Of a stretch of DNA of 64,000 bases, positions 664 through 60,317 are shown piece by piece. Origin of the DNA: an uncultured Gammaproteobacteria bacterium (lineage in GTDB: Bacteria > Patescibacteriota > Microgenomatia > Levybacterales > UBA12049); assembly GCA_964537895.1 (NCBI GenBank), contig CAZIDK010000002.1:82684-146683 (forward strand). Reading direction: 5' to 3'. The translations under genes and the position numbers were made by a program. Within the stretch, counting starts at the first letter, position 1. Every line of letters begins with the position of its first letter. The notes beneath the pieces were generated by a model. The model saw nothing but the letters and a program-made list of their open reading frames with translations, did not search any database and was not told the origin of the DNA.

Positions 664-692
664 TTGACAGTAAGCCCTTTTAGTCCTATTAT
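664..692 (+). promoter_or_regulatory. Near-consensus sigma70 promoter
   Basis: TTGACA (664-669), exact 17 bp spacer, TATTAT (687-692). Confidence 0.45.
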
Positions 693-698
693 AGGGTT

Positions 699-762
699 GT
701 GAAAATCAGATTAAATAGCAGGAAGTTTAATCACATATAGGCCGCCTTATGGCGGTTTTTTT
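699..762 (+). ncRNA. Candidate small RNA or attenuating 5' leader, about 64 nt, bounded by the promoter at 664-692 and an intrinsic terminator
   Basis: Predicted TSS is about 699. The terminator hairpin GCCGCC-TTAT-GGCGGT is followed by seven T (741-762). No convincing ORF lies inside. Confidence 0.3.
741..762 (+). terminator. Rho-independent terminator
   Basis: GC-rich 5-6 bp stem, tetraloop, T7 tract. Confidence 0.5.
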
Positions 763-791
763 GTGATAAAAGGAAGAATATGAATGAATTT

Positions 792-863
792 GCCCGCCTA
801 AGCTCACTTTAAAGCTTTTTAGAACTATTCGTTCACGCTTTAAAGAGTGCTTGGTCGGCGGGC
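792..863. promoter_or_regulatory. Long imperfect inverted repeat in the leader of the 923 gene
   Basis: Arms gcccgcctaagctcactttaaagc and gctttaaagagtgcttggtcggcgggc. Perfect 7 bp and 8 bp blocks flank an imperfect middle; the loop is about 21 nt. Confidence 0.35.
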
Positions 864-922
864 GTAAGAAATTCTAAAACTCGCAAACTTGTTAAGAATT
901 TCTAACGAAAGGAGGTGAAAAA

Positions 923-4127: not shown

Positions 4128-5291
4128 ATGAAGCTTCCTATTAAGTATATAGCCATAATAGCTTCTTTTTTAATATTAAATTTCTTATTCATAAAAAACT
4201 CATATGCAGTTTACGACCCAACATCCAAAACCAACAATATTGTGGGAATTCACATTTTATTTCCCAGCGAACTGGCAGAAGCTGCAAAATTAGTTAATTC
4301 TACGGGCGGAGATTGGGGCTACGTTACAATTCCAATTCAGGCATCAGACAAAGACTTAGTAAAATGGCAGGGTTTTATGGATGATAGCCGAAAATTTCAC
4401 TTAATTCCCATTATAAGACTTGCTACTAGCGGAGATTATTTTAACACTGTATCTTGGTCTAAGCCTACGGATAGTGATGTTTTAGATTTTGCCAATTTTT
4501 TAAACGCTCTTAATTGGCCTACCAAAAATAGGTATGTTGTGATTTATAACGAACCAAACAGGGGTGATGAATGGGGCGGAGCTCCCGATCCTGCGGGGTA
4601 CGCGGAAATATTAAGTTATGCCGCTGACGTTTTTAAGCAAAGAAGCGATGAGTTTTTTATTATTTCCGCAGGACTTGATAATGCGTCGGCTAATATTGCG
4701 GGACAATCGATAAACGAATACTCTTTTATAAGACAAGTGAATAACGCAGTGCCCGGAGTGTTTGGGAAAATTGACGGCCTGGCCAGTCATTCGTATCCAA
4801 ATCCCGGGTTTTCAGAGCCTCCTTCGGCATACGGATATCAAGGAATAGCCAGCTTTAAGTACGAACAGAGTCTGGTGCAAAGCTTGGAAGGCAAACTTCT
4901 GCCGGTTTTTATTACGGAAACGGGGTGGACGGATACTCAAATTCCGGAATCTGTTCAATCGGAATACTACAGGAGCGCATTTACCTCGATTTGGAACGAC
5001 AAAAATGTTATTGCGGTTACTCCTTTTTTGCTTCGGGCAGGAACGGGTCCTTTCGCCCAATTTTCTTTTATCAAAGACGAGCAGGAAAAACGAAATAAGT
5101 ATAAAACGCTACAAAATTTGCAAAAAAACAAAGGAGAGCCGGTACTAAACGAATACTCATTAACCAAGGGTTCGAACGCTGTAGAAAACGACTTTCCATT
5201 AGACAGGTTTACCAAAAGTATAAAGCAGAATTACACGGCGACTGTTTCAAAGGCAGCAAAAAATTTTATGAAATGGCTTCTAAACATTTAG
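4128..5291 (+). CDS. Secreted glycoside hydrolase, clan GH-A-like (TIM-barrel retaining glycosidase)
   Basis: N-terminal signal or TM anchor. Has an acid/base-type NEP motif (VVIYNEPNRGDEWGG) and a nucleophile-type TE-G motif (VFITETGWTD) at the expected spacing. Confidence 0.45.
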   Translation: MKLPIKYIAIIASFLILNFLFIKNSYAVYDPTSKTNNIVGIHILFPSELAEAAKLVNSTGGDWGYVTIPIQASDKDLVKWQGFMDDSRKFHLIPIIRLATSGDYFNTVSWSKPTDSDVLDFANFLNALNWPTKNRYVVIYNEPNRGDEWGGAPDPAGYAEILSYAADVFKQRSDEFFIISAGLDNASANIAGQSINEYSFIRQVNNAVPGVFGKIDGLASHSYPNPGFSEPPSAYGYQGIASFKYEQSLVQSLEGKLLPVFITETGWTDTQIPESVQSEYYRSAFTSIWNDKNVIAVTPFLLRAGTGPFAQFSFIKDEQEKRNKYKTLQNLQKNKGEPVLNEYSLTKGSNAVENDFPLDRFTKSIKQNYTATVSKAAKNFMKWLLNI

Positions 5292-5308: not shown

Positions 5309-5881
5309 TTGTCTGTCCCCTATTCCGGAAAAAATCAAATGAAAAATTATTTAAATATGGAAAGTTTAGAAATAGACAAGCAAACTTTCCAAAGCTTAAC
5401 GCACGGAAGTTTAATGGTTGAAGAAATAATTGAATTAATCAGGTTTTTTTTGGAAGAGAACCCTAATGCGGAGTACAGCCTTGTAATTGGTACTGATTCA
5501 CACGAAAAAAACGGAACCCCAAACGGCACTCCCAAGAAAATAAACTTAGTAACGGCCGTTTTAATTCATAGAAAAGGGTTTGGCGGAAAATACTTTTGGA
5601 TTAGGAAGGAAGTTGGCAACATTTATTCGTTAAGAGACAAGATTTACGCTGAAACCATCACGTCTTTAAATTTTGCCGGCGCTTTTGTCCCCCTTCTTAA
5701 AAAAGGCTTAAATGGACACTCGCCTAATTATAATTTGGAAATTCATGTTGATGTAGGAGAACACGGCGATACTCGGGACATGATAAAAGAGGTTGTCGGA
5801 ATGGTTACGGGCAATGGTTTTGTAGCTAAGACTAAGCCCGACGCATACGGGGCGTCTTACGTTGCAGATAAACATACCTGA
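5309..5881 (+). CDS. DUF458 / YkuK-like RNase H-fold protein
   Basis: Motifs LVIGTDSH...VTAVLIHRKG...LEIHVDVGEHGDT are typical of this family. Confidence 0.45.
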   Translation: MSVPYSGKNQMKNYLNMESLEIDKQTFQSLTHGSLMVEEIIELIRFFLEENPNAEYSLVIGTDSHEKNGTPNGTPKKINLVTAVLIHRKGFGGKYFWIRKEVGNIYSLRDKIYAETITSLNFAGAFVPLLKKGLNGHSPNYNLEIHVDVGEHGDTRDMIKEVVGMVTGNGFVAKTKPDAYGASYVADKHT

Positions 5882-5904
5882 ACTTAGGAATCAGCAACTA
5901 GCCT

Positions 5905-5939
5905 CTAGCAACTAGTTCGAACTGATGGCTAATTGCTAG
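5905..5939. promoter_or_regulatory. Nested palindrome in the DUF458 / HExxH intergenic region
   Basis: Outer arms CTAGCAA/TTGCTAG enclose the perfect 10 bp palindrome AGTTCGAACT. Confidence 0.3.
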
Positions 5940-5956
5940 TAGCTAAATGCTAATTT

Positions 5957-9526: not shown

Positions 9527-11800
9527 ATGACTGCCAAATCGAGGTTTGTTGCGTGGTTTTCCGAAGTGGATAAAGAGGACGTAGCGTTAGTCGGAGGGAA
9601 AGGTGCAAATTTAGGTGAAATGACAAAAGCTAAATTTCCAGTCCCCAACGGTTTTATTATAACATCCGAGGCTTACTACGCTTTTATAAGAGAAAACAAT
9701 TTCTCTGTAAAAATAAAGCACCTTTTAGAGACTGCAAATTTTGATAAACCCGATTCCTTATCGCAGGTTTCAACGCATATAAAAAAACTGATAATTGATG
9801 GTAAATTATCAAAGGAATTGGTCGGAGACGTTTTTAGAGCTTACAGTAAGCTTGGGACAGTTTTTGACGACACCCTCGTCGCGGTAAGATCTTCAGCAAC
9901 TGCCGAGGACCTTGCTAATGCCTCATTTGCCGGACAGCAGGAAACATTTTTGAATGTTAAAGGCGAAGCGGTGCTTTTGGAAAAAATTAAAGAAGGCTGG
10001 GCTTCGCTTTTTAATGCCCGGGCACTTTTTTACAGGCACGAGCAGCATTTTGACAATTTAAAAATTGGAATTGCGCTGGTTGTACAGAGAATGGTTGAAT
10101 CTGAAAAATCAGGAATAATGTTTACACTGGATCCTGTTACAAATGATAAATCAAAAATTGTAATTGAGGCAATTTACGGATTAGGGGAATTAATTGTGCA
10201 GGGGCAAGAAAATCCCGACCACTATGAAGTGTTAAAAAACGACTTTTCGATTATTTCTAAAAAAGCGGTATTGCAGAAAAAAATGCTTAAAAAAGTTGGT
10301 GCTAAAAATAAAGAGATTAAACTTACTAAATCCCAAGGCGGACACCAAAAATTGTCGGACAAAGAAATTATCGGATTGGCAAAGTTAGGCGAAAGATTGG
10401 AAAAACATTATTATTTTCCCCAAGATATTGAATGGGCAATTGAAAAAAATAAACTTTTTATTGTTCAAACAAGAGCAGTTACAACCGTAAATGAAAAAAA
10501 GCAAACAAAAAAAGCTATTGATGAAATCGCCAACACATCAAGAATACCGATATTAAAAGGCGATCCGGCAAGTCCGGGAATAGCCGCAGGTCCTGTCAGA
10601 ATTATTAAAAGTGCTAAGGAAATAGGCAAAGTAATGCCCGGAGAAGTTTTAGTTGCGCCTCAAACAAATCCTGATTATGTTCCGGCGATGAAAAAGGCCG
10701 TTGCCATTGTTACGGATAGCGGGGGAAGAACTTCACACGCGGCAATAGTCTCAAGGGAACTCGGAATTCCGGCAATTGTCGGTACCCAAAAGGCAACAAA
10801 AATTTTAAAACAAGGAGAGGTAGTAACCGTAAACGGCACAAAAGGCGAGATTTATAAAGGCGGACACTTAACTTCAAATGTAAACATAAACACAATTAAT
10901 CCCGAAGATTTTATAAAAACCGCTACTAAAGTTTACGTAAACTTGGCGGAACCGGAACTTGCGGAAAAAATCGCACAGCAAAATGTAGACGGAGTAGGAC
11001 TTTTAAGAGCCGAGTTTATGATGGCCGGTATTGGAATTCATCCTAAAAAATTGATCAGGGAGGGAAAAAAACAGCTATTTATCGAAAAACTAGCTAACGA
11101 CTTGGAAATGTTTTGCAAGCCTTTTAACCCGAGGCCGGTTGTTTATAGAGCCTCCGACTTTAAAACAAATGAATACAGATCGCTGATTGGAGGTAGGGAC
11201 TTCGAGCCCGAAGAACCAAATCCGATGCTAGGCTATAGGGGTGTATACCGGTATATTCATGATCCGGAAGTTTTTGAACTGGAGCTTGAAGCGATTAAAA
11301 TTGTCAGGAATAAAAAAGGATACAGAAATTTATGGCTGATGCTTCCTTTTGTAAGAACGGTCAAGGAACTTGAGGAAGTTAAGAAGATTATCAATATTTC
11401 CGGATTGCAGCGTTCCCCTACTTTTAAACTCTGGATGATGGTAGAAATTCCTTCTAACGTGATACTGCTTGAAGATTTCATTAAAGCGGGCATTGACGGA
11501 GTTTCAATCGGCTCTAATGATTTGACAATGCTGCTTTTAGGAACAGACCGGGATAACAGCGAAGTCGCATCGGAATTTAGCGAACTTAATCCTGCTGTGA
11601 TGTGGGCTTTTGAGCGCGTTATAAAAACTGCCCGCAAAACCGGAATTACCGCTTCTATTTGCGGGCAGGCAGTGTCAACATACCCTTTGCTTGTTGAAAA
11701 ATTAGTTTCTTGGGGAGTGACAAGTGTATCCATATCTCCGGACGCAGCCGACAGTACGAGAAAATTAATTTCCGAAACTGAGAAAAAAGTGATAAATTAA
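9527..11800 (+). CDS. ppsA: Phosphoenolpyruvate synthase (pyruvate, water dikinase)
   Basis: N-terminal ATP-grasp motif GGKGANLGEM, phosphohistidine domain GGRTSHAAIVSRELGIPAIVG, and a C-terminal PEP-utilising TIM barrel. 757 aa. Confidence 0.8.
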   Translation: MTAKSRFVAWFSEVDKEDVALVGGKGANLGEMTKAKFPVPNGFIITSEAYYAFIRENNFSVKIKHLLETANFDKPDSLSQVSTHIKKLIIDGKLSKELVGDVFRAYSKLGTVFDDTLVAVRSSATAEDLANASFAGQQETFLNVKGEAVLLEKIKEGWASLFNARALFYRHEQHFDNLKIGIALVVQRMVESEKSGIMFTLDPVTNDKSKIVIEAIYGLGELIVQGQENPDHYEVLKNDFSIISKKAVLQKKMLKKVGAKNKEIKLTKSQGGHQKLSDKEIIGLAKLGERLEKHYYFPQDIEWAIEKNKLFIVQTRAVTTVNEKKQTKKAIDEIANTSRIPILKGDPASPGIAAGPVRIIKSAKEIGKVMPGEVLVAPQTNPDYVPAMKKAVAIVTDSGGRTSHAAIVSRELGIPAIVGTQKATKILKQGEVVTVNGTKGEIYKGGHLTSNVNINTINPEDFIKTATKVYVNLAEPELAEKIAQQNVDGVGLLRAEFMMAGIGIHPKKLIREGKKQLFIEKLANDLEMFCKPFNPRPVVYRASDFKTNEYRSLIGGRDFEPEEPNPMLGYRGVYRYIHDPEVFELELEAIKIVRNKKGYRNLWLMLPFVRTVKELEEVKKIINISGLQRSPTFKLWMMVEIPSNVILLEDFIKAGIDGVSIGSNDLTMLLLGTDRDNSEVASEFSELNPAVMWAFERVIKTARKTGITASICGQAVSTYPLLVEKLVSWGVTSVSISPDAADSTRKLISETEKKVIN

Positions 11801-20531: not shown

Positions 20532-21146
20532 CTATCTTGGCAGTTTTAGAACATTACCGGAATGAATTACGTCTGGATTTACTAATTTATTTGCTTTTGC
20601 AATTTCCACCCATTTATATCCGTCCCCGTATGCTCTTACCGCAATTGTCCAAAGATAATCACCTTTTTGAACGGTATACGTTGATCCTGTTATGGAACTT
20701 GTTTTTTGAGCACTAATTACGGGATCCGCAGTATTTTTAACTATTATTGGTTTTACGTTAGGAATCGTAAGTTTTGTGCCAACGTATAAAAGTCCTGGAT
20801 TTGCTAATTTGTTTGCCTTGGATACATCAACCCAGTTGTAACCCGAACCGTATATTTTTTCTGATATATTCCAGAGATCGTCTCCTTGTTTAACCAGATA
20901 CGTTTTTGGTAATGATTTATTTGCTTGCTGTTCCTGACTCGTAGAAGTTGACTGCGTTGAACTCGTTTCATTAAAGTTTTTACCCTTTAAAAACGAAAAA
21001 ACAAGAACTGCTGCAACTACAACTACAACGATTCCTAAAAACAAACTCGTATAAGACTCTCCCCATTTTACCCTTGAAAAAACACTGCTACGAGCAACGG
21101 ATCTGGAGACAGCTTGTGTTTTGTTATTTTTTTTTGTTTTTGACAT
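20532..21146 (-). CDS. LysM-domain peptidoglycan-binding protein (N-terminal TM anchor, two LysM repeats)
   Basis: Two copies of the Y.V..GD.LW.I......G.G..W..I..AN.L.NP.....G..L.IP motif. Start trimmed to MSKTKKNNK at 21146 (GGAGGA SD upstream) because the longer ORF runs into tRNA-Asp. Confidence 0.65.
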   Translation of the reverse strand: MSKTKKNNKTQAVSRSVARSSVFSRVKWGESYTSLFLGIVVVVVAAVLVFSFLKGKNFNETSSTQSTSTSQEQQANKSLPKTYLVKQGDDLWNISEKIYGSGYNWVDVSKANKLANPGLLYVGTKLTIPNVKPIIVKNTADPVISAQKTSSITGSTYTVQKGDYLWTIAVRAYGDGYKWVEIAKANKLVNPDVIHSGNVLKLPR

Positions 21147-21340: not shown

Positions 21341-23194
21341 ATGAGTAACCTGGAAATAGTAAAGCTTTTTAGAAATGTTGCAGCCGCTTACTCAATAAAA
21401 GATGAAAAAAAATTCCGGTTCCAAATTATTGCATATCAAAAAGCCGCGGACACCGTTTCTAATTTAACTTCGGAAATTATTGACTTCTATAAAGATAATA
21501 AACTGAACACTCTTCCCGGTATTGGAGTAACCATAAAATCTCATCTTGAAGAACTATTTAAAACAAATAAGGTAAAGCAGTTTGAATGGGCTTTGCACGG
21601 AATTCCCGAAGCTGTTTTTCCCTTATTAGATATTCCCTCATTTGGTCCCAAAAAAGTATATAGGCTGGTCAAAGAATTTCATCTTAAAAACTCTAAAACC
21701 GTGCTTGAAGATCTTGAAAAAATTGCAAAGCAGGGGAAAATTGCCAGATTAGCTAGTTTTGGAGATAAATCTCAAAGTGACATTCTTAGAGCAATTGCCG
21801 AGTTCAGACTTGGAAAAGGAAAAACAACCAGAATGACACTCCCATATGCAATGGAGGTAGCCGATAAAGTAGTTTCTTATTTAAAGCAGTCAAAAGACGT
21901 AGTTCGCGCAGAACCTTTGGGAAGTTTAAGACGCAGAATGCCCACAGTCGGCGACATAGATATAGCCGTAGCCACAGATAACCCAAAAGGCGTAATTGAA
22001 TATTTTACCTCATATCCGTATAAAGAACGCATTATTGAAAAAGGCGATACAACCTCCTCAATCTTAGTTTCCGGAGGAAAGCAGGTGGACCTTATGACAC
22101 AGCCCCCGGAGGCTTTTGGGTCGCTTTTACAGCACTTTACAGGCAGCAAAAACCATAACATTCACTTAAGGGAATTCGCTCTCAAGAAAGGATTATCTCT
22201 ATCGGAATATGGCATCAGACGGAAAACGCCCGCCCCGCTTCGCTTGGCGAGGCCGGAGGAAAATGCCCGCCCTGAGCGAGGCCCCGCACCGTCTGGTGCA
22301 GGGCGAGGCCGAAGGGGGAAATGGAAAATGGAAAATTTTTCTACAGAAGAACAATTTTATCATGCTGTCGGCCTAGAGTGGATTCCGCCGGAAATAAGAG
22401 AGAATACGGGCGAGATTGAGTTGGCTTCTCAAAAAAAACTCCCTAAGCTCGTTGAGTTACCGGATATCAAGGGGGACCTGCATATTCACACAAGCTTTCC
22501 CATAGAACCAAGCCATGATTTGGGACAAAACACTATTTTAGAAATGCTGGAAAAAGCAAGACTTTTAAAATATGCGTATTTAGGATTTTCCGAACACAAT
22601 CCCAGTATTTCTAAACATAATTCAAATCAAACTTACTCAATTTTGGCAAGAAGAAATGAAGAAATTGAACATATTTTATTGAGTAATAAAGATGTTCGTA
22701 TATTAAAATTACTCGAAATTGATATATTACCTCACGGAAATCTTGCTATAGATGATAAATCTCTGAATCTCTTAGATGGCGCTATAGTTTCTATTCATAG
22801 CACATTCAACATGAACAAGACCGACATGACGGAAAGAGTTTTAAAGGGTTTGTCGCATAAAAAGGCTAAGATACTCGCTCACCCAACGGGCAGAATGTTA
22901 AATGAAAGACAAGGTTACGAATTGGATTGGAGCAAAATATTTGAATTTTGCAAAAAAAATAATAAGGCCTTGGAAATTAACAGCTGGCCGGGCAGATTAG
23001 ATTTACCCGATATGGTAATTAGAATGGCTGTAGAAGCCAAGGTTAAAATGGTAATAAATACAGACAGTCACGCGGTTTCCCAAATGGAGCTTATGAAGTA
23101 CGGCATTGCAATGGCAAGGAGAGGCTGGGCAACAAAAGATGACATACTCAATACTTTATCGTATAATGAATTCTCCGAGTGGTTAAGAAAATAA
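21341..23194 (+). CDS. polX: DNA polymerase X family protein with C-terminal PHP phosphoesterase domain
   Basis: N-terminal pol-beta-like HhH and palm domains, then LHIHTSFP and later His/Asp PHP motifs. An alternative start lies at 21317. Contains a GC-rich insertion that stays in frame at 22224-22318. Confidence 0.75.
   Translation: MSNLEIVKLFRNVAAAYSIKDEKKFRFQIIAYQKAADTVSNLTSEIIDFYKDNKLNTLPGIGVTIKSHLEELFKTNKVKQFEWALHGIPEAVFPLLDIPSFGPKKVYRLVKEFHLKNSKTVLEDLEKIAKQGKIARLASFGDKSQSDILRAIAEFRLGKGKTTRMTLPYAMEVADKVVSYLKQSKDVVRAEPLGSLRRRMPTVGDIDIAVATDNPKGVIEYFTSYPYKERIIEKGDTTSSILVSGGKQVDLMTQPPEAFGSLLQHFTGSKNHNIHLREFALKKGLSLSEYGIRRKTPAPLRLARPEENARPERGPAPSGAGRGRRGKWKMENFSTEEQFYHAVGLEWIPPEIRENTGEIELASQKKLPKLVELPDIKGDLHIHTSFPIEPSHDLGQNTILEMLEKARLLKYAYLGFSEHNPSISKHNSNQTYSILARRNEEIEHILLSNKDVRILKLLEIDILPHGNLAIDDKSLNLLDGAIVSIHSTFNMNKTDMTERVLKGLSHKKAKILAHPTGRMLNERQGYELDWSKIFEFCKKNNKALEINSWPGRLDLPDMVIRMAVEAKVKMVINTDSHAVSQMELMKYGIAMARRGWATKDDILNTLSYNEFSEWLRK
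22224..22318. repeat. GC-rich (about 70% GC) insertion that stays in frame inside polX
   Basis: Three gcgaggcc units and an imperfect palindrome gccctg...cagggc. Left-flank ggaaaacg and an inside-edge ggaaaatg are direct repeats; three ggaaaat heptamers lie on the right. Adds about 25 aa (PAPLRLARPEENARPERGPAPSGAGRGRRG) in the linker between the EYG and TEE motifs. Confidence 0.5.
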
Positions 23195-24661: not shown

Positions 24662-24728
24662 CATCCTGAGCTTATCGCACATTCGACATAGCTCAGTGCG
24701 ATACTGAGTTTAGCGAATGTATCGAAGG
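24662..24728. repeat. Nested-hairpin repeat element, copy 1 (REP/MITE-like or small structured RNA)
   Basis: cctgagcttatcgcACATTCGacatagCTCAGTgcgatACTGAGtttagCGAATGTatcgaagg. A central perfect 6 bp hairpin sits inside a 7 bp outer stem. The reverse complement of 35461-35530 matches it at about 85% identity. Confidence 0.6.
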
Positions 24729-24737
24729 ATAAATAAT

Positions 24738-26018
24738 ATGATCAATGTCTTGATAATTCTAATCGGAAAGGTTCTCTCTTTTTTGAGTAAAAATTTAAAC
24801 TTGGGACATGGATCAACTTGGCCGGGACATATTGCCCTAAAGATAAATAAAAATTTTATAAAGCAAACAATTGGGTCAAAAACCAAAGTCGTTCTCGTAG
24901 CAGGAACAAATGGAAAAACTACCACTTCTGCTCTTACTTGTCACATTCTTAAACAGAATGGATTTTCGGTAGTTCAAAATAAAAGCGGTGCTAACCTACT
25001 TAACGGAGCGGCATCAGCTATTATTCAAGGAATTAGACCATTTTCATCAAAGACTGACCAAGACTATTTGATTTTGGAAGTTGATGAAAACAATCTGCCT
25101 CTTGTTATAAACCAAACAAATCCATCCTATATCATTGCATTAGACTTGTTCCGTGATCAACTCGATAGATATGGTGAGGTTTATTCAATTATTAATAAAT
25201 GGAAAAATGCTTTTGAAAAACTTAGTAACAATAGTACGTTAATTCTAAATGCCGATGATCCTCAGGTTTCTTACCTTGGTAAAAATCTGAAATCAAAGGT
25301 AATATACTTTGGACTTAATGAAAATGATCAAGAAATAATTGAACACGGAGCAGATTCTATTTTCTGTCCAAAATGTCAACATCTGCTGGATTATAAATCT
25401 ATTACTTTTTCCCATCTTGGGAATTGGTTTTGCTCAAACTGCAATGAAAAAAGACCATCTCTAAATATTTCAAAATTTGAGATTTATCCCATTCCCGGCA
25501 CTTATAATAAGTATAATACTCTAGCTGCAATTTTATTAACAACTGATCAAGGATTATCTGGCAAGCAAATAACTGAAGCATTTAAATCCTTCAAGCCTGC
25601 TTTCGGAAGACAGGAAGAGTTCGAGGTTAATGGTAAAAAAACAAAAATATTTTTATCAAAAAATCCTACTAGCTTTAATGAGTCGCTATCAACTATTTCA
25701 GACCTAAACGCTAAAAATTTATTAATCGTTCTTAACGACAGAGTTCCTGATGGATTGGATATATCATGGATATGGGATACAAACACATCTCTTTTAGGAA
25801 ATATTTCAAACATTACAGTTTCCGGTGATAGGGCCTACGACATGGCTTTGAGAATCAAGTATTCCGGGCTTAAAAATTTCCATATTTTTGAAGATCTTTC
25901 AGATGCGATAAAACAATCTTTAGAGAAAACAAAATTCGGCGAAACACTATTTATTCTTCCTACATATTCCGCAATGCTTGAAACAAGAAAAATATTAACC
26001 GGCAAAAAAATATTATGA
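24738..26018 (+). CDS. murT: MurT-like lipid II isoglutamine synthetase, ligase subunit (Mur ligase domain, Cys4 ribbon, DUF1727)
   Basis: VVLVAGTNGKTTTSAL P-loop, the Cys4 ribbon CPKCQ...CSNC, and the C-terminal DUF1727-like region. Start taken at MINVL (SD aagga 7 nt upstream); the longer ORF would overlap the repeat element. Confidence 0.6.
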   Translation: MINVLIILIGKVLSFLSKNLNLGHGSTWPGHIALKINKNFIKQTIGSKTKVVLVAGTNGKTTTSALTCHILKQNGFSVVQNKSGANLLNGAASAIIQGIRPFSSKTDQDYLILEVDENNLPLVINQTNPSYIIALDLFRDQLDRYGEVYSIINKWKNAFEKLSNNSTLILNADDPQVSYLGKNLKSKVIYFGLNENDQEIIEHGADSIFCPKCQHLLDYKSITFSHLGNWFCSNCNEKRPSLNISKFEIYPIPGTYNKYNTLAAILLTTDQGLSGKQITEAFKSFKPAFGRQEEFEVNGKKTKIFLSKNPTSFNESLSTISDLNAKNLLIVLNDRVPDGLDISWIWDTNTSLLGNISNITVSGDRAYDMALRIKYSGLKNFHIFEDLSDAIKQSLEKTKFGETLFILPTYSAMLETRKILTGKKIL

Positions 26019-26773
26019 AATACAAATTGACAATCGGTTGGCTATATCCCAAGCTCATGAACGTATATGGTGATCGTGGTAACGTAATTACACTGCAAAA
26101 AAGATGTGAATGGCGAGATATTGAAGTGGAAATAAAATATTTGGACGCTCCCCTTTTAGAAAAAGACCTCGAAAAATGTGATTTGCTTATGATGGGCGGA
26201 GCGCAGGATGAACAACAAGAGATTGTTTCAGATGATTTGAAGAAAAAAAACAAAGCACTTAACTCAGCAATCGAAAAAGGAATCCCCGGTCTTTATGTTT
26301 GCGGAGCGTATCAATTCCTTGGAAATTATTATAAAGATGCAAGTGGGACAGAAATTCCCGGCCTTGGAATTTTTGACCTTTATACTATAAATCCCGGTGA
26401 AAACTCAAAAAGATTGATTGGAAATATTGTTACGGAATCGTCAATGGTAAATGGTCAATCGTCAGTTTTAGTAGGTTTTGAAAATCACGGAGGAAGAACT
26501 TATCTTGGAAAGAACACTAAACCATTGGGAACTGTAGTTTCCGGCTTTGGCAATAACGGGAATGATAAAACAGAAGGAGCTATTTACAAAAATTCTATCG
26601 GAACATATTTCCACGGTCCCATTCTGCCAAAAAACCCAAGACTTGCTGACTTCCTTATTGAAAAAGCGCTTGAAATAAAATACAAAAAGAAAATTATCCT
26701 TGAAAAATTGGACGACTCATTTGCCGAAAACGCGAGAAAAGTGATTGCCAAAAGACTGTCCATTGCAATATAA
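26015..26773 (+). CDS. gatD: GatD-like glutamine amidotransferase partner of MurT (CobB/CobQ-type GATase)
   Basis: N-terminus LTIGWLYPKLMNVYGDRGN and the C..Y nucleophile context (LYVCGAYQ). Overlaps murT by 4 nt. Confidence 0.6.
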   Translation: MKYKLTIGWLYPKLMNVYGDRGNVITLQKRCEWRDIEVEIKYLDAPLLEKDLEKCDLLMMGGAQDEQQEIVSDDLKKKNKALNSAIEKGIPGLYVCGAYQFLGNYYKDASGTEIPGLGIFDLYTINPGENSKRLIGNIVTESSMVNGQSSVLVGFENHGGRTYLGKNTKPLGTVVSGFGNNGNDKTEGAIYKNSIGTYFHGPILPKNPRLADFLIEKALEIKYKKKIILEKLDDSFAENARKVIAKRLSIAI

Positions 26774-28505: not shown

Positions 28506-28584
28506 AATTTATAATCAAACTCAAATGTTTTAAAATTGAAACATTGAAAATTCATTGAAAATTTAAAATTGGTAATTAAAAATT

Positions 28585-29961
28585 ATGAATAAATATACGC
28601 CAGTAATCGGCCTTGAAGTGCACGTTGAGTTAAAAACCACCAGCAAAATGTTTTGTGCTTGCTCTGCTGACTACTTTGGCAAAAAGCCTAACACCCATAC
28701 TTGCCCCGTTTGCCTTGGTCTTCCTGGCGCACTTCCCTATCCAAATAAAAAAGCAATTGAATGGTGCGTAATGATTGGACTTGCATTAAATTGTAAGATT
28801 CCCCTATTTTCCAAATTCGACAGAAAAAATTATTTTTATCCTGACCTTGCCAAAGGTTACCAAATTTCACAGTATGACAAACCATTTTGCCAAAATGGAT
28901 GGATAGAATTACAAAACGGCAAAAGAATTGGAATTACCAGGGTCCACATGGAAGAAGATACCGGTAAATTAATTCATGAAAAAGTTGACGGAGAAAATGT
29001 AAGCTTAATCGATTTTAACCGAAGCGGAGTCCCGCTTGTTGAAATAGTTACAGAACCGGATTTTGAAACGGCTGATGAAGTAAAAGAATACCTGCAAAAA
29101 CTTCAGCAAATTGTCAGATACCTTGGGGTTTCCAATGCCGACATGGAAAAAGGAGACATGAGATTGGAACCTAACATTTCACTTCGTGAAATCAGCAATC
29201 AGCAATCACCTGCCCGCAATGCTTCGCAAAGCGATGCAGGCGGGGCAATCAGCAATCAATTACCACCCTATAAAGTTGAAGTAAAAAACATAAATTCGTT
29301 TGCTTTTGTATCAAAAGCGATTGATTACGAAATAAAAAGACAAACAGAAATTTTGGAAAAAGGAAAAACTCCCGTACAGGAAACAAGGGGATTTGTTGAA
29401 AAAACCTCGTCGACAGTTACGCAAAGAGTTAAGGAGGAGGCATCAGACTACAGATATTTCCCAGAACCGGATATTCCTCCAATCCGTTGGCTTGAATCTC
29501 AAATTTTAAATCTTAAATCTCAAATGCCGGAGCTTCCGGATGCAAAACTTGATAGGTTTCAAAAACAATACTCACTCTCCCAATACGACAGCGGCCTATT
29601 AACAAGAATAGCTGAGCTTGCAAGTTTTTTTGAAGAAGCTGTTACTTTGGGCAAAGAACACAACCTTATTCCTAAACAAATCGCCAATTTTATTATCAAT
29701 CGAAAAATTAACCTTGATGAAATTCTGCCCGCAGAGCTTGTTAAAAAGGTTGTTTCTGCAAGTAAAACCGATGATATAAACGAAGAAGAGTTAGTAAAAA
29801 TCATTAAAAAAATATTGAAAGATAATCCGAAAATCGCAGAAGATTATAAAAAAGGCAAGGATTCTGTCATCCAGTTTGCCATTGGACAAGTTATGTATAT
29901 AATAAGAAAGAAAATAGATACGGATATTTTGACAAAACTAATAAAGGAGGAATTAAAATAA
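28585..29961 (+). CDS. gatB: Asp/Glu-tRNA amidotransferase subunit B
   Basis: N-terminus YTPVIGLEVHVEL; C-terminal YqeY-like tail. Contains a GC-rich insertion that stays in frame at 29190-29259. Confidence 0.85.
   Translation: MNKYTPVIGLEVHVELKTTSKMFCACSADYFGKKPNTHTCPVCLGLPGALPYPNKKAIEWCVMIGLALNCKIPLFSKFDRKNYFYPDLAKGYQISQYDKPFCQNGWIELQNGKRIGITRVHMEEDTGKLIHEKVDGENVSLIDFNRSGVPLVEIVTEPDFETADEVKEYLQKLQQIVRYLGVSNADMEKGDMRLEPNISLREISNQQSPARNASQSDAGGAISNQLPPYKVEVKNINSFAFVSKAIDYEIKRQTEILEKGKTPVQETRGFVEKTSSTVTQRVKEEASDYRYFPEPDIPPIRWLESQILNLKSQMPELPDAKLDRFQKQYSLSQYDSGLLTRIAELASFFEEAVTLGKEHNLIPKQIANFIINRKINLDEILPAELVKKVVSASKTDDINEEELVKIIKKILKDNPKIAEDYKKGKDSVIQFAIGQVMYIIRKKIDTDILTKLIKEELK
29190..29259. 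repeat. GC-rich palindromic insertion flanked by caatcag heptamer repeats, in frame inside gatB
   Basis: Left flank atcagcaatcagcaatca, core cctgcccgcaatgcttcgcaaagcgatgcaggcgggg, right flank caatcagcaatcaa. Adds about 25 aa (ISNQQSPARNASQSDAGGAISNQ) between conserved GatB blocks. Confidence 0.5.
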
Positions 29962-35456: not shown

Positions 35457-35460
35457 TATG

Positions 35461-40440: not shown

Positions 40441-40479
40441 GCCGAAGTAACTCAGCGGTAGAGTAGCTCTTTCGCCTGC
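40441..40479 (+). pseudogene. tRNA 5'-half-like fragment 2
   Basis: gccgaag-ta-actc-agcggta-gagt-a-gctct-ttcgcct aligns position by position with nt 1-37 of the adjacent tRNA-Thr and breaks off after the anticodon-loop position. Confidence 0.5.
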
Positions 40480-40487
40480 CCGCCATC

Positions 40488-40559
40488 GCCAACATAGCTC
40501 AGTGGCAGAGCAGCTGTTTCGTAAACAGCAGGTCGTTGGTTCGATCCCAACTGTTGGCT
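40488..40559 (+). tRNA. tRNA-Thr (anticodon CGT)
   Basis: GCCAACA/TGTTGGC acceptor, D-stem GCTC/GAGC, anticodon stem GCTGT/ACAGC with loop TTCGTAA, T-arm GTTGG-TTCGATC-CCAAC. Confidence 0.8.
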
Positions 40560-40582
40560 CAGGCAAGCAAGATTTACTGGGA

Positions 40583-40621
40583 TAAACAGCAGGTCCTCGG
40601 TTCAATCCCGAGAGACGGCTC
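40583..40621 (+). pseudogene. tRNA 3'-half-like fragment 1
   Basis: aacagcaggtc matches tRNA-Thr from position 38 on. The T-arm CTCGG-TTCAATC-CCGAG has compensatory changes. Preceded by gatttactgggata. Confidence 0.5.
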
Positions 40622-40647
40622 AATAAACGGCTGAATTTACCGGGATA

Positions 40648-40686
40648 AACACTAGGTCGCAGGTTCGATTCCCGCCATCGGCTCTG
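40648..40686 (+). pseudogene. tRNA 3'-half-like fragment 2
   Basis: aacactaggtc, then T-arm GCAGG-TTCGATT-CCCGC and an acceptor-like 3' end catcggctc. Preceded by gaatttaccgggata. Confidence 0.45.
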
Positions 40687-58478: not shown

Positions 58479-60317
58479 ATGTTAGATCCCTACAGAATGG
58501 TTCTTGTTAATATAATTGCTTCTGCTTTAGTTTTAGCAGGAACTCTTTTTTATAGATATATTTATCCAAAAAAGAAAATTAATTTATTTGTTTTGCTTCT
58601 TATTATTTCTATCCTACCGATAATAAGTATCTTTAGAACGGGTGCTTACGAAAGCGGAGACTTTAACATTCATATCTATAGAATAATGTCTTTTTATGAT
58701 TCCTTAAAAGAAGGTATTCTTATGCCTTCCTGGGCAGCTGAGCTCAATGCCACATACGGTAACCCACTATTTATCTTTAATTACCCTCTTCCCTACTACG
58801 TTATTTCTTTTCTTCATTTTCTAGGACTTAGTTTTATTTCAAGTATGAAATTATATCTGGGCCTTACTCTGTACCTGTCTGGAATTTTCATGTATCTACT
58901 TTTTAAAGAGCTTTCAAATAATAAGCTTGCAGCTTTTACGGCGGCAATATTCTATATTTTTAATCCATATCATTTAATAGACGTCCACTTTAGAGCAACA
59001 TTGGGAGAGTCTACTATCTTTACTCTTGTTCCATTATTATTTTTGTTTATCGTCAAATATTTAAAAGAGGACAAAAAGATATACCTTGTTTTAATTATTT
59101 TCTTCACTGACTTGCTCTTTCTTGCCCATCCGCTTTTAGCCGGAGTTTTCTTAGGGATAGCTGTACTATACGTTATATTATTTGCCAAAAATACAAGAAG
59201 AATATTGTCTTCAATAGCTTCGCTTTTAATTGGGGCTTTTTCTTCTATTTATACTTGGAGTCCTTTCTATCTATATTCACAATATATGTTTAAATTTAAT
59301 GAGCCGTCTGTCAGAGACATTTCCTTTTATCCCTTCTACGAATTATTTGTTTCTCCTTGGAGATTTGGATTTCTGTTTCAGGGTCCAAAAGGAGAATTAG
59401 CCCAAATAATAGGATATACACAAATCCTCGTGGTTCTTCTATCGATAACACTGATTGTATTTAAGAAAATTCAGGAAAAGATAAAAAAAGAATATATCTT
59501 CTGGTTATCCTTATTTTTCCTTACTCTCTTCATGATGAATCCTGGCTCAAACTTTTTTTGGAGATACATGCCTAATATTGGTTCTATGTTAAATTTGTAC
59601 GGCAGACTATCTCTTGTCTTAAGCTTCGGCACTTCTGTAATTGCCGGATACTTTATTCTTTCTTTTCCTTTAAGAAAAAGGCCAATGTTTATATACTTAC
59701 TAATTTTAATAACCATATCATACACAATATTAAACTGGGGACATCGAAGGGTAATACCGGAAATTAACGACGCTGTGCTTAGAAAGAACGTTTGGATTAG
59801 CACTGCGGTGGCCGAGGGGACTACCGCTTATTTTTTAAACACTAAATGGGCGGATATTAACAATTTTTGGTTTTCAAAACGTCCGGATAAACCACTAGAT
59901 GTTCTTAAAAGAAATGCGACTGTAAAACCAATTAAAAGAACTTCTATTTTACACACTTATGATGTTGATGCTAAAACGGCTTTAACTATTAGAGAAAACA
60001 CACTATATTTTCCCGGATGGACTTTAAAAAGCAACAATAAAATCGTAAATATATATCCGGGTGAAAGAGGAATAATCAATGCGTACCTGCCCGCCGGAAA
60101 ACAATACCTAACATTGTTTTATAAAGATATACCGGCTTATGCGCTTACAAAAACAATAAGCGGTATATCATTCTTAGTATTAATACTTATATTAGTCATT
60201 TATTATCTATTTTCTTTTTTGCCTATCCATAACATTTCTCCCGGTAAGCGTAAAACCCAACTTGGTTTAAGTATAAAAAAGGGAGCAAGCAATTTCATAA
60301 GCCCCGGACGGAAGTAA
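58479..60317 (+). CDS. Polytopic membrane protein, GT-C/YfhO-like
   Basis: GAYESGDF loop after TM1-2, followed by many TM helices. The 3' end overlaps the convergent methyltransferase gene by 115 nt. Confidence 0.3.
   Translation: MLDPYRMVLVNIIASALVLAGTLFYRYIYPKKKINLFVLLLIISILPIISIFRTGAYESGDFNIHIYRIMSFYDSLKEGILMPSWAAELNATYGNPLFIFNYPLPYYVISFLHFLGLSFISSMKLYLGLTLYLSGIFMYLLFKELSNNKLAAFTAAIFYIFNPYHLIDVHFRATLGESTIFTLVPLLFLFIVKYLKEDKKIYLVLIIFFTDLLFLAHPLLAGVFLGIAVLYVILFAKNTRRILSSIASLLIGAFSSIYTWSPFYLYSQYMFKFNEPSVRDISFYPFYELFVSPWRFGFLFQGPKGELAQIIGYTQILVVLLSITLIVFKKIQEKIKKEYIFWLSLFFLTLFMMNPGSNFFWRYMPNIGSMLNLYGRLSLVLSFGTSVIAGYFILSFPLRKRPMFIYLLILITISYTILNWGHRRVIPEINDAVLRKNVWISTAVAEGTTAYFLNTKWADINNFWFSKRPDKPLDVLKRNATVKPIKRTSILHTYDVDAKTALTIRENTLYFPGWTLKSNNKIVNIYPGERGIINAYLPAGKQYLTLFYKDIPAYALTKTISGISFLVLILILVIYYLFSFLPIHNISPGKRKTQLGLSIKKGASNFISPGRK

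What the first reader, a model, noticed from the sequence alone, without database searches (positions are those of the whole stretch)
791..864. Recurring GC-only motif tgcccgcc / cccgccatcg marks several GC-rich islets
In an AT-rich window the octamer (t)gcccgcc, or a 7/8 variant, appears at five sites. These are both arms of the leader inverted repeat (791-798, and 857-864 as its reverse complement), twice in the polX insertion (about 22228 and 22263), in the gatB insertion (about 29209), and in the tRNA-fragment array (40476). The 10-mer cccgccatcg is duplicated at 40478-40487 and 40671-40680. For a specific GC-only 8-mer at this base composition the chance expectation is well below one occurrence in 64 kb. 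This links the leader repeat, the in-frame insertions and the tRNA-fragment array as possible products of one recombination or mobile-element activity.
Basis: seen in the sequence. Interest (0 to 1): 0.5.

Follow-up and report, generated by a model that had tools for sequence, protein, structure and literature searches.

The report
Tiny GC hairpins inserted inside genes
The recurring 8-letter motif is mostly coincidence, but two of its sites (inside the polX and gatB genes) are copies of 30-36-base GC-rich hairpin elements that sit in-frame in essential genes and recur almost letter for letter in many uncultured bacterial phyla.

Summary
The window is from a Levybacteria-like CPR bacterium with 35.8% GC. 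The motif sites exist, but the count is not beyond chance. TGCCCGCC occurs 4 times against 0.94 expected, GCCCGCC 6 against about 2, and the latter ranks 246th of 7,744 heptamers.

Only two sites are truly related. The gatB insertion (29209-29244) and the first polX insertion (22228-22257) share GCCCGC-N3-GCTTCGC-N3-GCGA, with 0.04 matches expected. They belong to two families of tiny GC-rich hairpins, Fam1 (36 nt) and Fam2 (30 nt). A genome scan for the shared core hit its 120-locus limit across many CPR phyla, Verrucomicrobiota, Desulfobacterota and Nitrospirota.

Close relatives have empty sites differing by exactly +30 nt (polX) and +36 nt plus one extra codon in the flanking array (gatB), with no 7-nt target duplication. 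Both copies lie inside heptanucleotide arrays. In CPR genomes Fam1 sits mostly in-frame and sense, encoding PARNASHSDAGG, inside RpoB, SecA, GyrA, RNR and tRNA synthetases.

The other sites are unrelated:
- The leader hairpin (791-864) is part of a single-copy insertion absent from a syntenic relative.
- cccgccatcg is tRNA-derived.
- 60088 is chance.

How the elements move is inferred, not shown.

The parts
29209..29244 (+). Fam1 element, 36 nt: CCTGCCCGCAATGCTTCGCAAAGCGATGCAGGCGGG. It lies in-frame in gatB and encodes PARNASQSDAGG.
   Evidence: Covariance model R1 scores it 63.7 bits, E = 1.8e-11. It is absent from the gatB of L126 and L003 and present in L127. As DNA it folds at -12.5 kcal/mol, z = -3.4.
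29190..29208 (+). Left part of the (AATCAGC)n heptanucleotide array that the Fam1 element interrupts.
   Evidence: Tandem Repeats Finder reports period 7, 2.7 copies, 100% matches. L126 has the same array uninterrupted, AGCAATC x4.
29245..29259 (+). Right part of the same heptanucleotide array (GCAATCAGCAATCAA).
   Evidence: Read from the sequence and compared with L126.
22228..22257 (+). Fam2 element, 30 nt: GCCCGCCCCGCTTCGCTTGGCGAGGCCGGA. It lies in-frame in polX and encodes most of PAPLRLARPE.
   Evidence: Orthologues of 589-590 aa lack it. L003 (filled) and L005 (empty) differ by exactly 30 nt inside a (GGAAAAT)5 array. The same 30-mer family occurs in 15 other loci.
22265..22315 (+). Second GC-rich imperfect palindrome in polX, about 51 nt, inserted one heptamer unit downstream of the first. 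It starts GCCCGCCC like Fam2.
   Evidence: It is present only in the window, L001, L002 and L127, and absent from L003. It adds 17 aa relative to P0002. No other copy was found.
22316..22336 (+). Remainder of the (GGAAAAT)n heptanucleotide array in polX. One further unit lies at 22258-22264, between the two elements.
   Evidence: Tandem Repeats Finder reports period 7 at 22319-22336; sequence read.
791..864 (+). Leader hairpin with outer GC clamp GCCCGCC/GGCGGGC and an AT-rich interior. It is not a Fam1 or Fam2 copy.
   Evidence: It folds at -35 kcal/mol as RNA, z = -5.5. No other copy exists in the held DNA. No Rfam match reaches threshold; the best is 21.6 bits against a gathering score of 47.
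791..906 (+). Lineage-specific insertion of about 115 nt between the upstream terminator and the ribosome-binding site of ORF 923. It holds the leader hairpin plus a second hairpin at about 867-903.
   Evidence: In the syntenic locus L129 the terminator runs straight into the ribosome-binding site and ATG. The two-hairpin fold gives -26.9 kcal/mol as DNA, z = -5.9.
768..790 (+). Decayed left copy of the ribosome-binding site plus start codon (AAAAGGAAGAATATGAATGAATT). It forms an imperfect direct repeat with 907-934, flanking the leader insertion.
   Evidence: Compared with the functional AAAGGAGGTGAAAAAATGAAAAAAATT at 907-934 and with L129.
40441..40487 (+). tRNA pseudogene fragment: a 5' half joined to CCTGCCCGCCATCG, which is a T-stem and acceptor 3' strand. 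It holds the motif at 40477 and the first copy of the 10-mer.
   Evidence: Sequence read. Neither ARAGORN nor Rfam calls it a tRNA.
40488..40560 (+). Intact tRNA-Thr(CGT).
   Evidence: ARAGORN and Rfam both call it; Rfam score 69.8 bits.
40583..40685 (+). Two tandem tRNA 3'-half copies at 40583-40622 and 40646-40685. The second ends ...TTCGATTCCCGCCATCGGCTCT and holds the second copy of the 10-mer.
   Evidence: Direct-repeat family D2: 3 copies of 40 nt, the two 3'-half copies 80% and 73% identical to the reference copy (the 3' part of the intact tRNA-Thr), spaced 61 and 63 nt.
60088..60095 (+). An exact TGCCCGCC in ordinary coding sequence of a PTPS_related membrane protein. No hairpin and no insertion; a chance occurrence.

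Best explanation
The five or six motif sites are three unrelated things plus chance.

(1) The hairpin elements. The gatB insertion and the first polX insertion are copies of two related families of very short GC-rich hairpin insertion elements. Fam1 is 36 nt: a CCTG tail plus an imperfect palindrome. Fam2 is 30 nt. They were gained in the recent ancestry of this lineage. Fam2 was gained in the common ancestor of the window, L127 and L003. Fam1 and the second polX palindrome were gained later, in the ancestor of the window and L127.
- Each went cleanly into a heptanucleotide tandem array in a length-variable part of the protein. In GatB that is a surface loop; in PolX it is the junction between the polymerase and PHP domains.
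- The elements persist in coding DNA because their length is a multiple of three and because the sense frame gives a small polar peptide bounded by Pro and Gly (PARNASHSDAGG).
- Near-identical copies occur at low copy number in many CPR phyla and in Verrucomicrobiota, Desulfobacterota and Nitrospirota. So this is a horizontally spread, non-autonomous element, not a local recombination product.
- Inferred, not shown: it moves as a single-stranded DNA hairpin through a factor supplied in trans, in the manner of REP/RAYT or IS200/IS605 elements, without a target-site duplication.

(2) The leader hairpin at 791-864 belongs to a separate single-copy insertion of about 115 nt.

(3) The tRNA-array motif is tRNA-derived sequence.

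The site at 60088 is chance.
For: The two insertions are related.
- They share a 23-nt pattern with 0.04 matches expected.
The copies fall into two clear consensus families.
- It also hit 15 loci in viral contigs.

They are insertions.
- polX is 28 aa longer than its 589-aa orthologues. P0002 (92% identical) has only the first module.
- At the DNA level, L003 against L005 is +30 nt inside (GGAAAAT)5. The window against L126 is +36 nt (plus one extra codon) inside (AGCAATC)n.
- gatB of L003 lacks the element, while L127 (96% identical) has it.
- A solved GatB structure has a 19-residue gap at the site. The PolX insertion falls between the two aligned domains of the solved structure.

Coding bias.
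- In low-GC (CPR) loci, 35 of 38 copies spanned by a long ORF are sense, and 34 of those use the PARNAS frame.
- Ten host ORFs were tested and all are real genes: RNR, Tgt, class I tRNA synthetases, GyrA, trigger factor, SecA, RpoB, MetRS, a Wzy-type ligase and a rhodanese protein.

Structure.
- Fam1 folds as DNA at -12.5 kcal/mol, z about -3.5.
- Columns 11-21 and 12-20 covary: 16 double changes against 4.8 +/- 1.7, with 0 of 500 shuffles reaching the observed value.

Heptamer arrays.
- Fam2 flanks match only at offsets 0, 7 and 14.
- Period-7 arrays number 9 in the window against 2.3 in shuffles.

The other sites.
- The leader insertion is absent from syntenic L129 and has no other copy.
- The 10-mer lies in tRNA-derived repeats.
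Against: - No transposase or other gene recurs next to the elements in 120 loci, so the mobilising activity is unidentified.
- Copy number is very low. There are none in about 300 kb of relatives' DNA that was not selected for the element. Only 571 candidate proteins in 5.8 billion share words with the peptide. That is unlike classical REPs.
- Fam2 alone does not fold better than shuffled sequence; z is -0.2 to -0.9.
- The covarying sub-hairpin (11-21, 12-20) differs from the minimum-energy hairpin (12-30).
- The loci were retrieved with a pattern built from these two copies, so the measured conservation is partly imposed by the search.
- In L003 GatD a heptamer array and a hairpin appear together where relatives have neither. 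This fits a footprint or target-duplication origin of the arrays better than clean insertion into pre-existing arrays.
- CCTGCCCGCCAT at 40475-40486 equals the first 12 nt of one Fam1 variant, so a link to the tRNA array is not fully excluded.
Confidence: 0.65

Rival explanations
1. One mobile-element or recombination activity, marked by tgcccgcc, produced the leader inverted repeat, both in-frame insertions and the tRNA-fragment array.
For: - All four exact TGCCCGCC sites are on the + strand, 4 observed against 0.94 expected.
- The leader hairpin starts TGCCCGCC, like Fam2.
- CCTGCCCGCCAT at 40475 equals the first 12 nt of a Fam1 variant.
- The leader hairpin is also a lineage-specific insertion.
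Against: - The word count is unremarkable once the choice among many words is allowed for: rank 246 of 7,744.
- The leader shares nothing with Fam1 or Fam2 beyond the 7-mer. It gave no hit to model R1 in the window, even at E up to 10, and has no other copy.
- The tRNA-array site scores 7.6 bits, E = 9.6, against R1. It is explained by tRNA T-stem and acceptor sequence.
- No integrase or transposase lies nearby.
Confidence: 0.08
2. Pure coincidence. All the sites, including polX and gatB, are unrelated GC-rich stretches that happen to share a short word.
For: The 7-mer and 8-mer counts are compatible with chance after multiple-testing correction.
Against: - The polX and gatB insertions share 17 specified bases in register, with 0.04 matches expected.
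- Each matches a family with dozens of near-identical copies elsewhere.
Confidence: 0.03
3. The hairpins are not transposing elements. They are filler DNA captured during repair of breaks or slippage in unstable heptanucleotide arrays, copied from a common abundant template such as a phage, a plasmid or a small DNA or RNA hairpin.
For: - There is a strong association with heptamer arrays.
- There is no 7-nt or other fixed-length target duplication in the two filled-versus-empty pairs.
- No transposase is associated.
- Copy number is low.
- Copies occur in viral contigs.
Against: - No source template was found. Searches of 72,556 plasmids and 50,697 phage records gave nothing.
- The insert boundaries are exact and identical across phyla, at 36 or 30 nt, which is unusual for captured filler.
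- Most Fam1 copies are not in heptamer arrays; only 10 of 88 are.
- Nested and tandem copies, as in L119 and L041, look like the behaviour of a mobile element.
Confidence: 0.12
4. The element is kept for a function at the RNA or protein level. Examples would be an mRNA hairpin that modulates translation or decay, or a peptide module such as one built around the N-A-S sequon. On this view its spread reflects selection for that function and not selfish mobility.
For: - There is an extreme orientation and frame bias in CPR genes: 35 sense against 3 antisense, and 34 of 35 in one frame.
- Nucleotide-level conservation includes unpaired positions.
- There is covariation in a sub-hairpin.
Against: - The host proteins are unrelated and the sites are loops, termini and linkers.
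- Close relatives do without the insertion.
- Many copies are intergenic or in other frames in higher-GC genomes.
- After insertion the sequence decays, as in the L127 polX module, which carries 2 substitutions within the 30-nt element.
- Purifying selection against hydrophobic frames would produce the same frame bias.
Confidence: 0.1
5. A sequencing or assembly artefact, for example a synthetic hairpin oligonucleotide incorporated into contigs.
For: - The 36-mer is identical in unrelated phyla.
- It appears only in metagenome-assembled genomes and is absent from plasmid and cultured-phage collections.
Against: - The same insertion sits at the same site in independent assemblies from different projects (SRR13723393, SRR13723397, ERZ27245806, SRR6945354). 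These carry flanking substitutions, which implies vertical descent.
- The strong frame and orientation bias would not be expected from an artefact.
- Subfamily variants track taxonomy.
Confidence: 0.02

Closest known systems
Rickettsia palindromic elements (RPE; Ogata et al. 2000, 2002; Claverie and Ogata 2003, as summarised in PMC2229807 and PMC3733652)
   Same: - Palindromic repeats inserted in-frame into conserved housekeeping genes.
- They are translated and tolerated in permissive parts of the proteins.
- They also occur in intergenic DNA.
- The host is a reduced, AT-rich genome.
   Different: - RPEs are 105-146 bp and specific to Rickettsia. Here the elements are 30-36 nt and GC-rich.
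- Here the copy number per genome is very low.
- Here the elements are shared almost unchanged across several phyla.
REP and REPIN elements with their RAYT transposases (PMC2817692, PMC3116915, PMC3733652, PMC8266576)
   Same: - A 20-40-nt imperfect GC-rich palindrome preceded by an unpaired tetranucleotide. Here that is CCTG; in REPs it is GTAG or CGTC.
- Nested and paired arrangements occur.
- REPs inside genes, notably replication and repair genes, are on record (abstract of PMC3733652).
- Insertion without a target duplication fits single-strand HUH chemistry.
   Different: - REPs are high-copy (more than 100 per genome), mainly extragenic and specific to a species or genus. They are tied to a RAYT gene in the same genome.
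- Here copy number is about 1 per 64 kb or less and CPR copies are mainly inside genes.
- Here the tag differs, the same sequence spans phyla, and no RAYT was seen.
Very small mobile repeated elements (small dispersed repeats) of cyanobacteria, Elhai et al. 2008 (recalled from memory, not read here)
   Same: - Mobile palindromic units of tens of nucleotides.
- They nest within each other and can sit inside genes.
- They occur in genomes that also carry heptanucleotide tandem repeats (STRR).
   Different: - Those elements are confined to cyanobacteria and are high-copy. No cross-phylum identity is reported for them.
- The link here between hairpin and heptamer array is direct: the hairpin sits inside the array.
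GC clusters of yeast mitochondrial DNA (recalled from memory, not read here)
   Same: - GC-rich palindromes of 30-40 nt scattered in a very AT-rich genome.
- They are mobile and are occasionally inserted in-frame into a coding gene (var1).
   Different: - Those are in an organelle genome, at hundreds of copies per genome, with unrelated sequences.
Bacterial MITEs (Correia/NEMIS, ERIC, RUP; PMC2229807, PMC3184786)
   Same: - Non-autonomous, hairpin-forming elements.
- They are sometimes fused in-frame to ORFs.
   Different: - MITEs are 70-300 bp with 15-30-bp terminal inverted repeats and a fixed target duplication (often TA). None of these features applies here.

Membership tests
REP (repetitive extragenic palindrome) | Imperfect palindrome of 20-40 nt able to form a stem-loop | tested here: met
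   Fam1 is 36 nt and folds as DNA at -12.5 kcal/mol, z = -3.4 to -3.65. Fam2 is 30 nt but its fold is no better than shuffled sequence.
REP (repetitive extragenic palindrome) | High copy number, typically more than 100 per genome | tested here: not met
   There is one Fam1 and one Fam2 copy in the 64-kb window. None was found in about 300 kb of unselected relatives' DNA, apart from the orthologous copy in L127.
REP (repetitive extragenic palindrome) | Predominantly extragenic location | tested here: not met
   In low-GC loci 38 of 58 Fam1 copies are spanned by ORFs of at least 120 aa. Ten of ten host ORFs tested are conserved genes.
REP (repetitive extragenic palindrome) | Conserved GTAG or CGTC tetranucleotide at one end (PMC3733652) | tested here: not met
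   The unpaired 5' tail is CCTG in at least 90% of Fam1 variants.
REP (repetitive extragenic palindrome) | A RAYT (TnpA-REP) gene in the same genome, often flanked by REPs | not testable with these tools
   No complete genome was available. No family recurring within +/-4 kb of 120 copies looked transposase-like; families were judged from representative sequences, not profile searches. The 10 window ORFs scanned against Pfam include no Y1 transposase.
Rickettsia palindromic elements (RPE) | Palindromic repeat inserted in-frame in conserved protein genes | tested here: met
Rickettsia palindromic elements (RPE) | Length of 105-146 bp, sequence families specific to Rickettsia | tested here: not met
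   The elements are 30 and 36 nt. The hosts are CPR, Verrucomicrobiota, Desulfobacterota and Nitrospirota.
MITE | Terminal inverted repeats of 15-30 bp and a fixed-length target-site duplication | tested here: not met
   The filled-versus-empty pairs differ by exactly +30 nt and by +36 nt (plus one unrelated codon), with no duplication. The whole element is shorter than a pair of MITE terminal repeats.
IS200/IS605-type single-strand transposition (as a mechanism, not as family membership) | Insertion without target duplication, dependence on a hairpin, strand or orientation bias | tested here: inconclusive
   No target duplication was seen. A hairpin is present. There is a 35:3 orientation bias relative to genes. 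The replication strand could not be determined and no TnpA was found.
Integrase attachment-site remnants at a tRNA gene (for the 40.4-40.7 kb array) | Duplicated tRNA 3' segment next to an intact tRNA, plus an integrase or an integrated element | tested here: inconclusive
   Three copies in register of the tRNA 3' half are present. The downstream genes are a Big-domain protein and a glycosylation cluster, with no integrase.
Known RNA families (Rfam 15) | Score at or above a family's gathering threshold | tested here: not met
   Only four tRNAs reach threshold in the window. Nothing reaches threshold at the leader, gatB or polX sites.

The most novel reading that the evidence does not exclude
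Fam1 and Fam2 may be the smallest mobile elements yet seen in bacteria, at 30-36 nt. On this reading a single hairpin sequence circulates across CPR, PVC-group, Desulfobacterota and Nitrospirota genomes. It inserts by a so far unknown activity supplied in trans, and it targets or generates heptanucleotide arrays. This would explain why non-triplet heptamer repeats accumulate in these genomes. The elements would repeatedly add a ready-made PARNASHSDAGG loop to essential proteins such as RpoB, SecA, GyrA, GatB and tRNA synthetases.
Probability: 0.3. Interest if true: 0.8.

Novelty: new variant of a known kind. Interest (0 to 1): 0.6.

Why it matters
In-frame palindromic insertions are known from Rickettsia, and REPs are occasionally found inside genes. 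Here the unit is only 30-36 nt. The same sequence occurs in distant uncultured phyla, inside the most conserved genes of very small genomes.

If it is truly mobile, three things follow.
- It sets a new lower size limit for a transposable unit.
- It points to an unidentified, widely shared mobilising activity.
- It gives a concrete mechanism for the origin of loop insertions, and perhaps of heptanucleotide arrays, in CPR proteins.

There are practical consequences too.
- These insertions inflate the apparent divergence of marker genes such as RpoB, GyrA, SecA and GatB that are used for phylogeny.
- They can serve as rare genomic changes for tracing lineages.

For the finding as submitted, the lesson is that the 8-mer is not evidence on its own. 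The signal was in the longer shared pattern.

Tried and rejected
- Rfam. The gathering-threshold search of the whole window and E-value searches of the leader, gatB and polX sites found only tRNAs.
- Integrase or phage origin of the tRNA array. The Pfam scan of neighbouring ORFs shows a Big-domain protein and a glycosylation cluster, with no integrase.
- Other copies of the leader hairpin, the second polX palindrome, the 24675/35453 inverted repeat and the 5881 palindrome. blastn-short against all held DNA found none outside the same lineage.
- Further Fam1 copies in the window. The R1 hit at 11631-11669 is native PEP-utilising-enzyme sequence (TARKTGITASICGQA), so it was rejected. The hit at 27244-27262 is native gatA sequence.
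- A gene for a mobilising enzyme. All-against-all clustering of 1,907 ORFs from 120 element-bearing loci recovered no family that looked transposase-like. The recurrent families, judged from their representative sequences, look like housekeeping genes: ABC transporter, GyrA, ribosomal proteins and tRNA synthetases.
- A source template. blastn of the 36-mer against the plasmid and phage collections gave no match.
- Prevalence of the peptide. A concatenated PARNASHSDAGG query gave only 571 word-sharing candidates and 8 weak hits.
- Literature. Six searches were run, including the literal DNA and peptide strings. They found no description of this element or of REP-like repeats in CPR. The library covers open-access papers only.
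- A simple 7-bp target duplication. It was rejected for the two filled-versus-empty pairs, but it is not excluded as the origin of the arrays.
- CTAAAAC, the most over-represented heptamer. It is dispersed with no shared flanks, so it reflects composition or codon usage and not an element.
Full report
**Source and setting.** The window has 35.8% GC. Its PolX and GatB proteins have best hits in Patescibacteria (CPR), with Levybacteria named for several. Exactly the same proteins occur in Logan assemblies SRR13723393 and SRR13723397, and on a 183-kb NCBI contig.

**Checking the observation.** The motif is at the stated places, with corrections.
- The sites at 857-864 (minus strand) and 22227 read CGCCCGCC. 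The gatB site at 29211 reads TGCCCGCA.
- The claim that the expectation is well below one does not hold. The exact 8-mer is expected 0.94 times and observed 4 times, and 1 of 100 shuffles reaches 4.
- The 7-mer GCCCGCC is expected 2.0-2.3 times and observed 6 times. With one mismatch allowed, 27 are seen against 18 expected.
- GCCCGCC is only the 3rd most enriched of 64 GC-only heptamers and the 246th of 7,744 heptamers. Two of its six hits are the two arms of one hairpin.
- The word count is therefore not evidence for anything.
- The 10-mer duplication is real, with 2 observed against 0.02 expected. The 791-864 hairpin is real, with z = -5.5.

**What links polX and gatB.** Reading the two insertions side by side shows a much longer shared pattern, GCCCGC-N3-GCTTCGC-N3-GCGA. 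It has two exact matches where 0.04 are expected.

Both are insertions relative to orthologues.
- PolX is 28 aa longer than the usual 589 aa. P0002, which is 92% identical, carries only the first 10-12 aa of the insertion.
- At the DNA level, L003 (filled) and L005 (empty) differ by exactly 30 nt. The extra sequence is GCCCGCCCCGCTTCGCTTGGCGAGGCCGGG, inside a (GGAAAAT)5 array.
- The window and L127 carry a further GC palindrome of about 51 nt, placed one heptamer later.
- GatB of L003 (440 aa) lacks any insertion.
- L126 has an uninterrupted (AGCAATC)4 array where the window has the same array split by exactly 36 nt. The insert is CCTGCCCGCAATGCTTCGCAAAGCGATGCAGGCGGG.
- L127, which is 96% identical in GatB, shares the insertion with one substitution in the flank.
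- The order of gains fits the tree. The polX 30-mer came first. The gatB 36-mer and the second polX palindrome came later.
- In solved structures, the GatB site is a short loop, seen as a 19-residue gap in 3h0l_B. The PolX site is the junction between the polymerase and PHP domains.

**The families elsewhere.** I scanned one genome per species with the 20-base core TGCCCGC-N3-GCTTCGC-N3-GCGA-N-GC.

The copies fall into two consensus families.
- Fam1 is CCTGCCCGC-AAT-GCTTCGC-ATA-GCGATGC-AGGCGGG.
- Fam2 is GCCCGCCCCGCTTCGC-(GGA or TTG)-GCGAGGCCGGG.

Among the 80 loci whose record titles were shown, my own tally of the titles gives about 33 from named CPR groups. These include Saccharibacteria, Nomura-, Davies-, Curtiss-, Levy-, Staskawicz-, Moran- and Zambryskibacteria. 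About 19 are from Verrucomicrobiota, Kiritimatiellia or Lentisphaerae, 9 from Desulfobacterota and 4 from Thermodesulfovibrionia or Nitrospirae. Fifteen viral-contig loci carry a Desulfobacterota-type variant in intergenic positions.

Copy number is low.
- There was no further copy in about 300 kb of relatives' DNA that had not been selected for the element.
- Only 571 proteins in 5.8 billion share words with the peptide.
- There was no match in 72,556 plasmids or 50,697 cultured-phage records.

**Coding context.** In low-GC loci, 38 of 58 Fam1 copies lie in ORFs of at least 120 aa. Of these, 35 are sense, and 34 of those use the frame reading PARNASHSDAGG. Five of the six frames are open, so this is a real bias.

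All ten host ORFs tested are conserved genes. They are ribonucleotide reductase, Tgt, a class I tRNA synthetase, GyrA, trigger factor, a rhodanese protein, SecA, RpoB, a Wzy-type ligase and MetRS. By my reading of the ORF translations, which was not checked by a profile search, GyrA carries the element at several different positions in different genomes.

The same GatB loop carries four other, unrelated palindromic hairpins in other Levybacteria-like lineages. In-frame colonisation of permissive loops by hairpin repeats therefore appears to be general in this group.

**Structure.** Fam1 folds as a 5'-tailed hairpin at -12.5 kcal/mol as DNA, z about -3.5. The variable positions covary as 11-21 and 12-20, with 16 double changes against 4.8 +/- 1.7 and 0 of 500 shuffles reaching the observed value. 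They do not covary as 12-30. This suggests a sub-hairpin NNGC-TTC-GCNN inside the outer CCCGC/GCGGG stem. Fam2 alone does not fold better than shuffled sequence.

**Heptanucleotide arrays.** In Fam2 the last heptamer before the element matches the sequence after it only at offsets 0, 7 and 14. Seven or eight of 16 copies match at 5 of 7 or better at offsets 0 and 7, four at offset 14, and none at any other offset. Fam1 shows a weaker version of the same signal, 10 of 88. Period-7 arrays are about four times enriched in the window, 9 against 2.3 in shuffles.

The two filled-versus-empty comparisons show no net 7-nt duplication. However, in L003 GatD an (AAATCAT)n array and an antisense Fam2 copy appear together where four relatives have neither. 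It remains open whether the arrays are the target or a by-product of the element.

**Mechanism.**
- Shown: the sequences are insertions, exact in length and without a detectable target duplication. They are hairpin-forming, low in copy number and shared between phyla. In CPR they are mostly in-frame and sense.
- Inferred: they are non-autonomous. No recurrent neighbouring family looked transposase-like.
- Inferred: they move as single-stranded hairpins through a factor supplied in trans, as proposed for REP/RAYT and IS200/IS605 (PMC6006769, PMC8266576). The frame bias reflects selection for a small polar loop.
- A rival reading is that break repair captures a common hairpin template into unstable arrays.

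**The other motif sites.**
- The leader hairpin lies in a segment of about 115 nt (791-906) that also holds a second hairpin at about 867-903.
- In syntenic L129 the conserved promoter, short transcript and terminator unit runs straight into the ribosome-binding site and ATG.
- In the window a decayed copy of the ribosome-binding site and start (768-790) and the functional copy (907-934) flank the extra segment.
- This segment has no other copy in the held DNA and no Rfam match. It shares only GCCCGCC with the families, so I treat it as a separate orphan insertion. Deletion in L129 cannot be excluded.
- The array at 40.4-40.7 kb is tRNA-Thr(CGT) with tRNA-derived fragments. There are a 5' pseudogene piece and three copies in register of the tRNA 3' half: the 3' part of the intact gene and two tandem fragments.
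- cccgccatcg is the T-stem and acceptor 3' strand. No integrase is nearby.
- The site at 60088 is plain coding sequence.

**Comparison with known elements and novelty.** The closest precedents are Rickettsia palindromic elements and REPs found inside genes (PMC2229807, PMC3733652). Fam1 and Fam2 fail the defining tests for REP on copy number, extragenic location and the GTAG or CGTC tag. They fail those for RPE on size and host. They fail those for MITE on terminal repeats and target duplication.

Six literature searches, including the literal DNA and peptide strings, found no description of them. The library is open-access only, so this is not proof of novelty.

**Verdict.**
- I rate the result as a new variant of a known kind, with interest about 0.6.
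- The main caveats are these. The mobilising mechanism is unknown.
- The loci were retrieved with a pattern derived from the two window copies, so conservation is partly imposed by the search.

Noticed in passing
window 28585-29961 (GatB loop, codons about 200-228); loci L224-L227: The same GatB loop (between NISL and LPxYKVEVKN) carries four other, unrelated palindromic hairpin insertions in other Levybacteria-like lineages. Examples are GTCATCCTGAGC...GCTCAGAATGAC and GGCGCGTAG...CTACGCGCC. Others carry AATCAGC- or ACAAAT-type simple repeats.
   Followed up: partly
window 5893-5915, 21114-21141, 22319-22336, 26436-26464, 28485-28515, 28532-28584, 29190-29208, 29491-29525, 57437-57460: Heptanucleotide tandem arrays are about four times enriched (9 against 2.3 in dinucleotide shuffles). 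Several lie inside coding sequence, although 7 is not a multiple of 3.
   Followed up: partly
L003 10782-11582 (GatD/CobQ-like GATase_3): The close relative carries a second Fam2 copy, antisense, embedded in an (AAATCAT)n array. Together they form a 14-aa N-terminal extension that is absent from the window, L126, L127 and L005.
   Followed up: partly
window 664-766: A near-consensus promoter (TTGACA-17-TATTAT) is followed after about 65 nt by an intrinsic terminator, upstream of the secreted-protein gene at 923. The unit is conserved in L129. A terminator in the same position occurs in L131 and L135. It could be a small RNA or an attenuator leader.
   Followed up: no
window 24675-24739 and 35453-35517: Two intergenic copies of a 65-nt element lie in inverted orientation, 83% complementary. 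The element contains a tRNA-like CATAGCTCAGTG stretch. It is a separate repeat family.
   Followed up: no
window 5881-5956: An intergenic palindrome built from heptamer units (AATCAGC, AACTAGC ... and their complements). The unit is the same one that flanks the gatB hairpin.
   Followed up: no
window about 41000-64000: GC falls from about 0.38-0.41 to 0.28-0.33 directly after the tRNA array. The region encodes cell-envelope glycosylation genes (Wzy_C, PMT_2, GT2). It may be an island bounded by the tRNA fragments, but no integrase was seen in the ORFs checked.
   Followed up: partly
window 40475-40486: CCTGCCCGCCAT, just upstream of tRNA-Thr, equals the first 12 nt of the Fam1 'CAT' variant. 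The covariance-model score is only 7.6 bits. It is either a coincidence or a truncated copy.
   Followed up: partly
window 11627-11671: A 45-nt palindrome, CTGCCCGCAAA...TTTGCGGGCAG, resembles the outer stem of Fam1. It encodes native conserved PEP-utilising-enzyme sequence (TARKTGITASICGQA), so it is not an insertion.
   Followed up: yes
L041 about 4597-4670; L119 (minus strand): L041 has two tandem Fam1 copies in one 1,029-aa ORF. L119 has a Fam1 copy interrupted by a second, different hairpin nested between GCGATGC and AGGCGGG.
   Followed up: no
L127 9633-10004; L226 1-304: A 23S_rRNA_IVP-family gene sits between gatA and gatB in close relatives but is absent from the window.
   Followed up: no
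whole window: CTAAAAC is the most over-represented heptamer, with 41 observed against 13.6 expected. The copies are dispersed on both strands and share no flanks, so this is probably a composition or codon-usage effect.
   Followed up: yes
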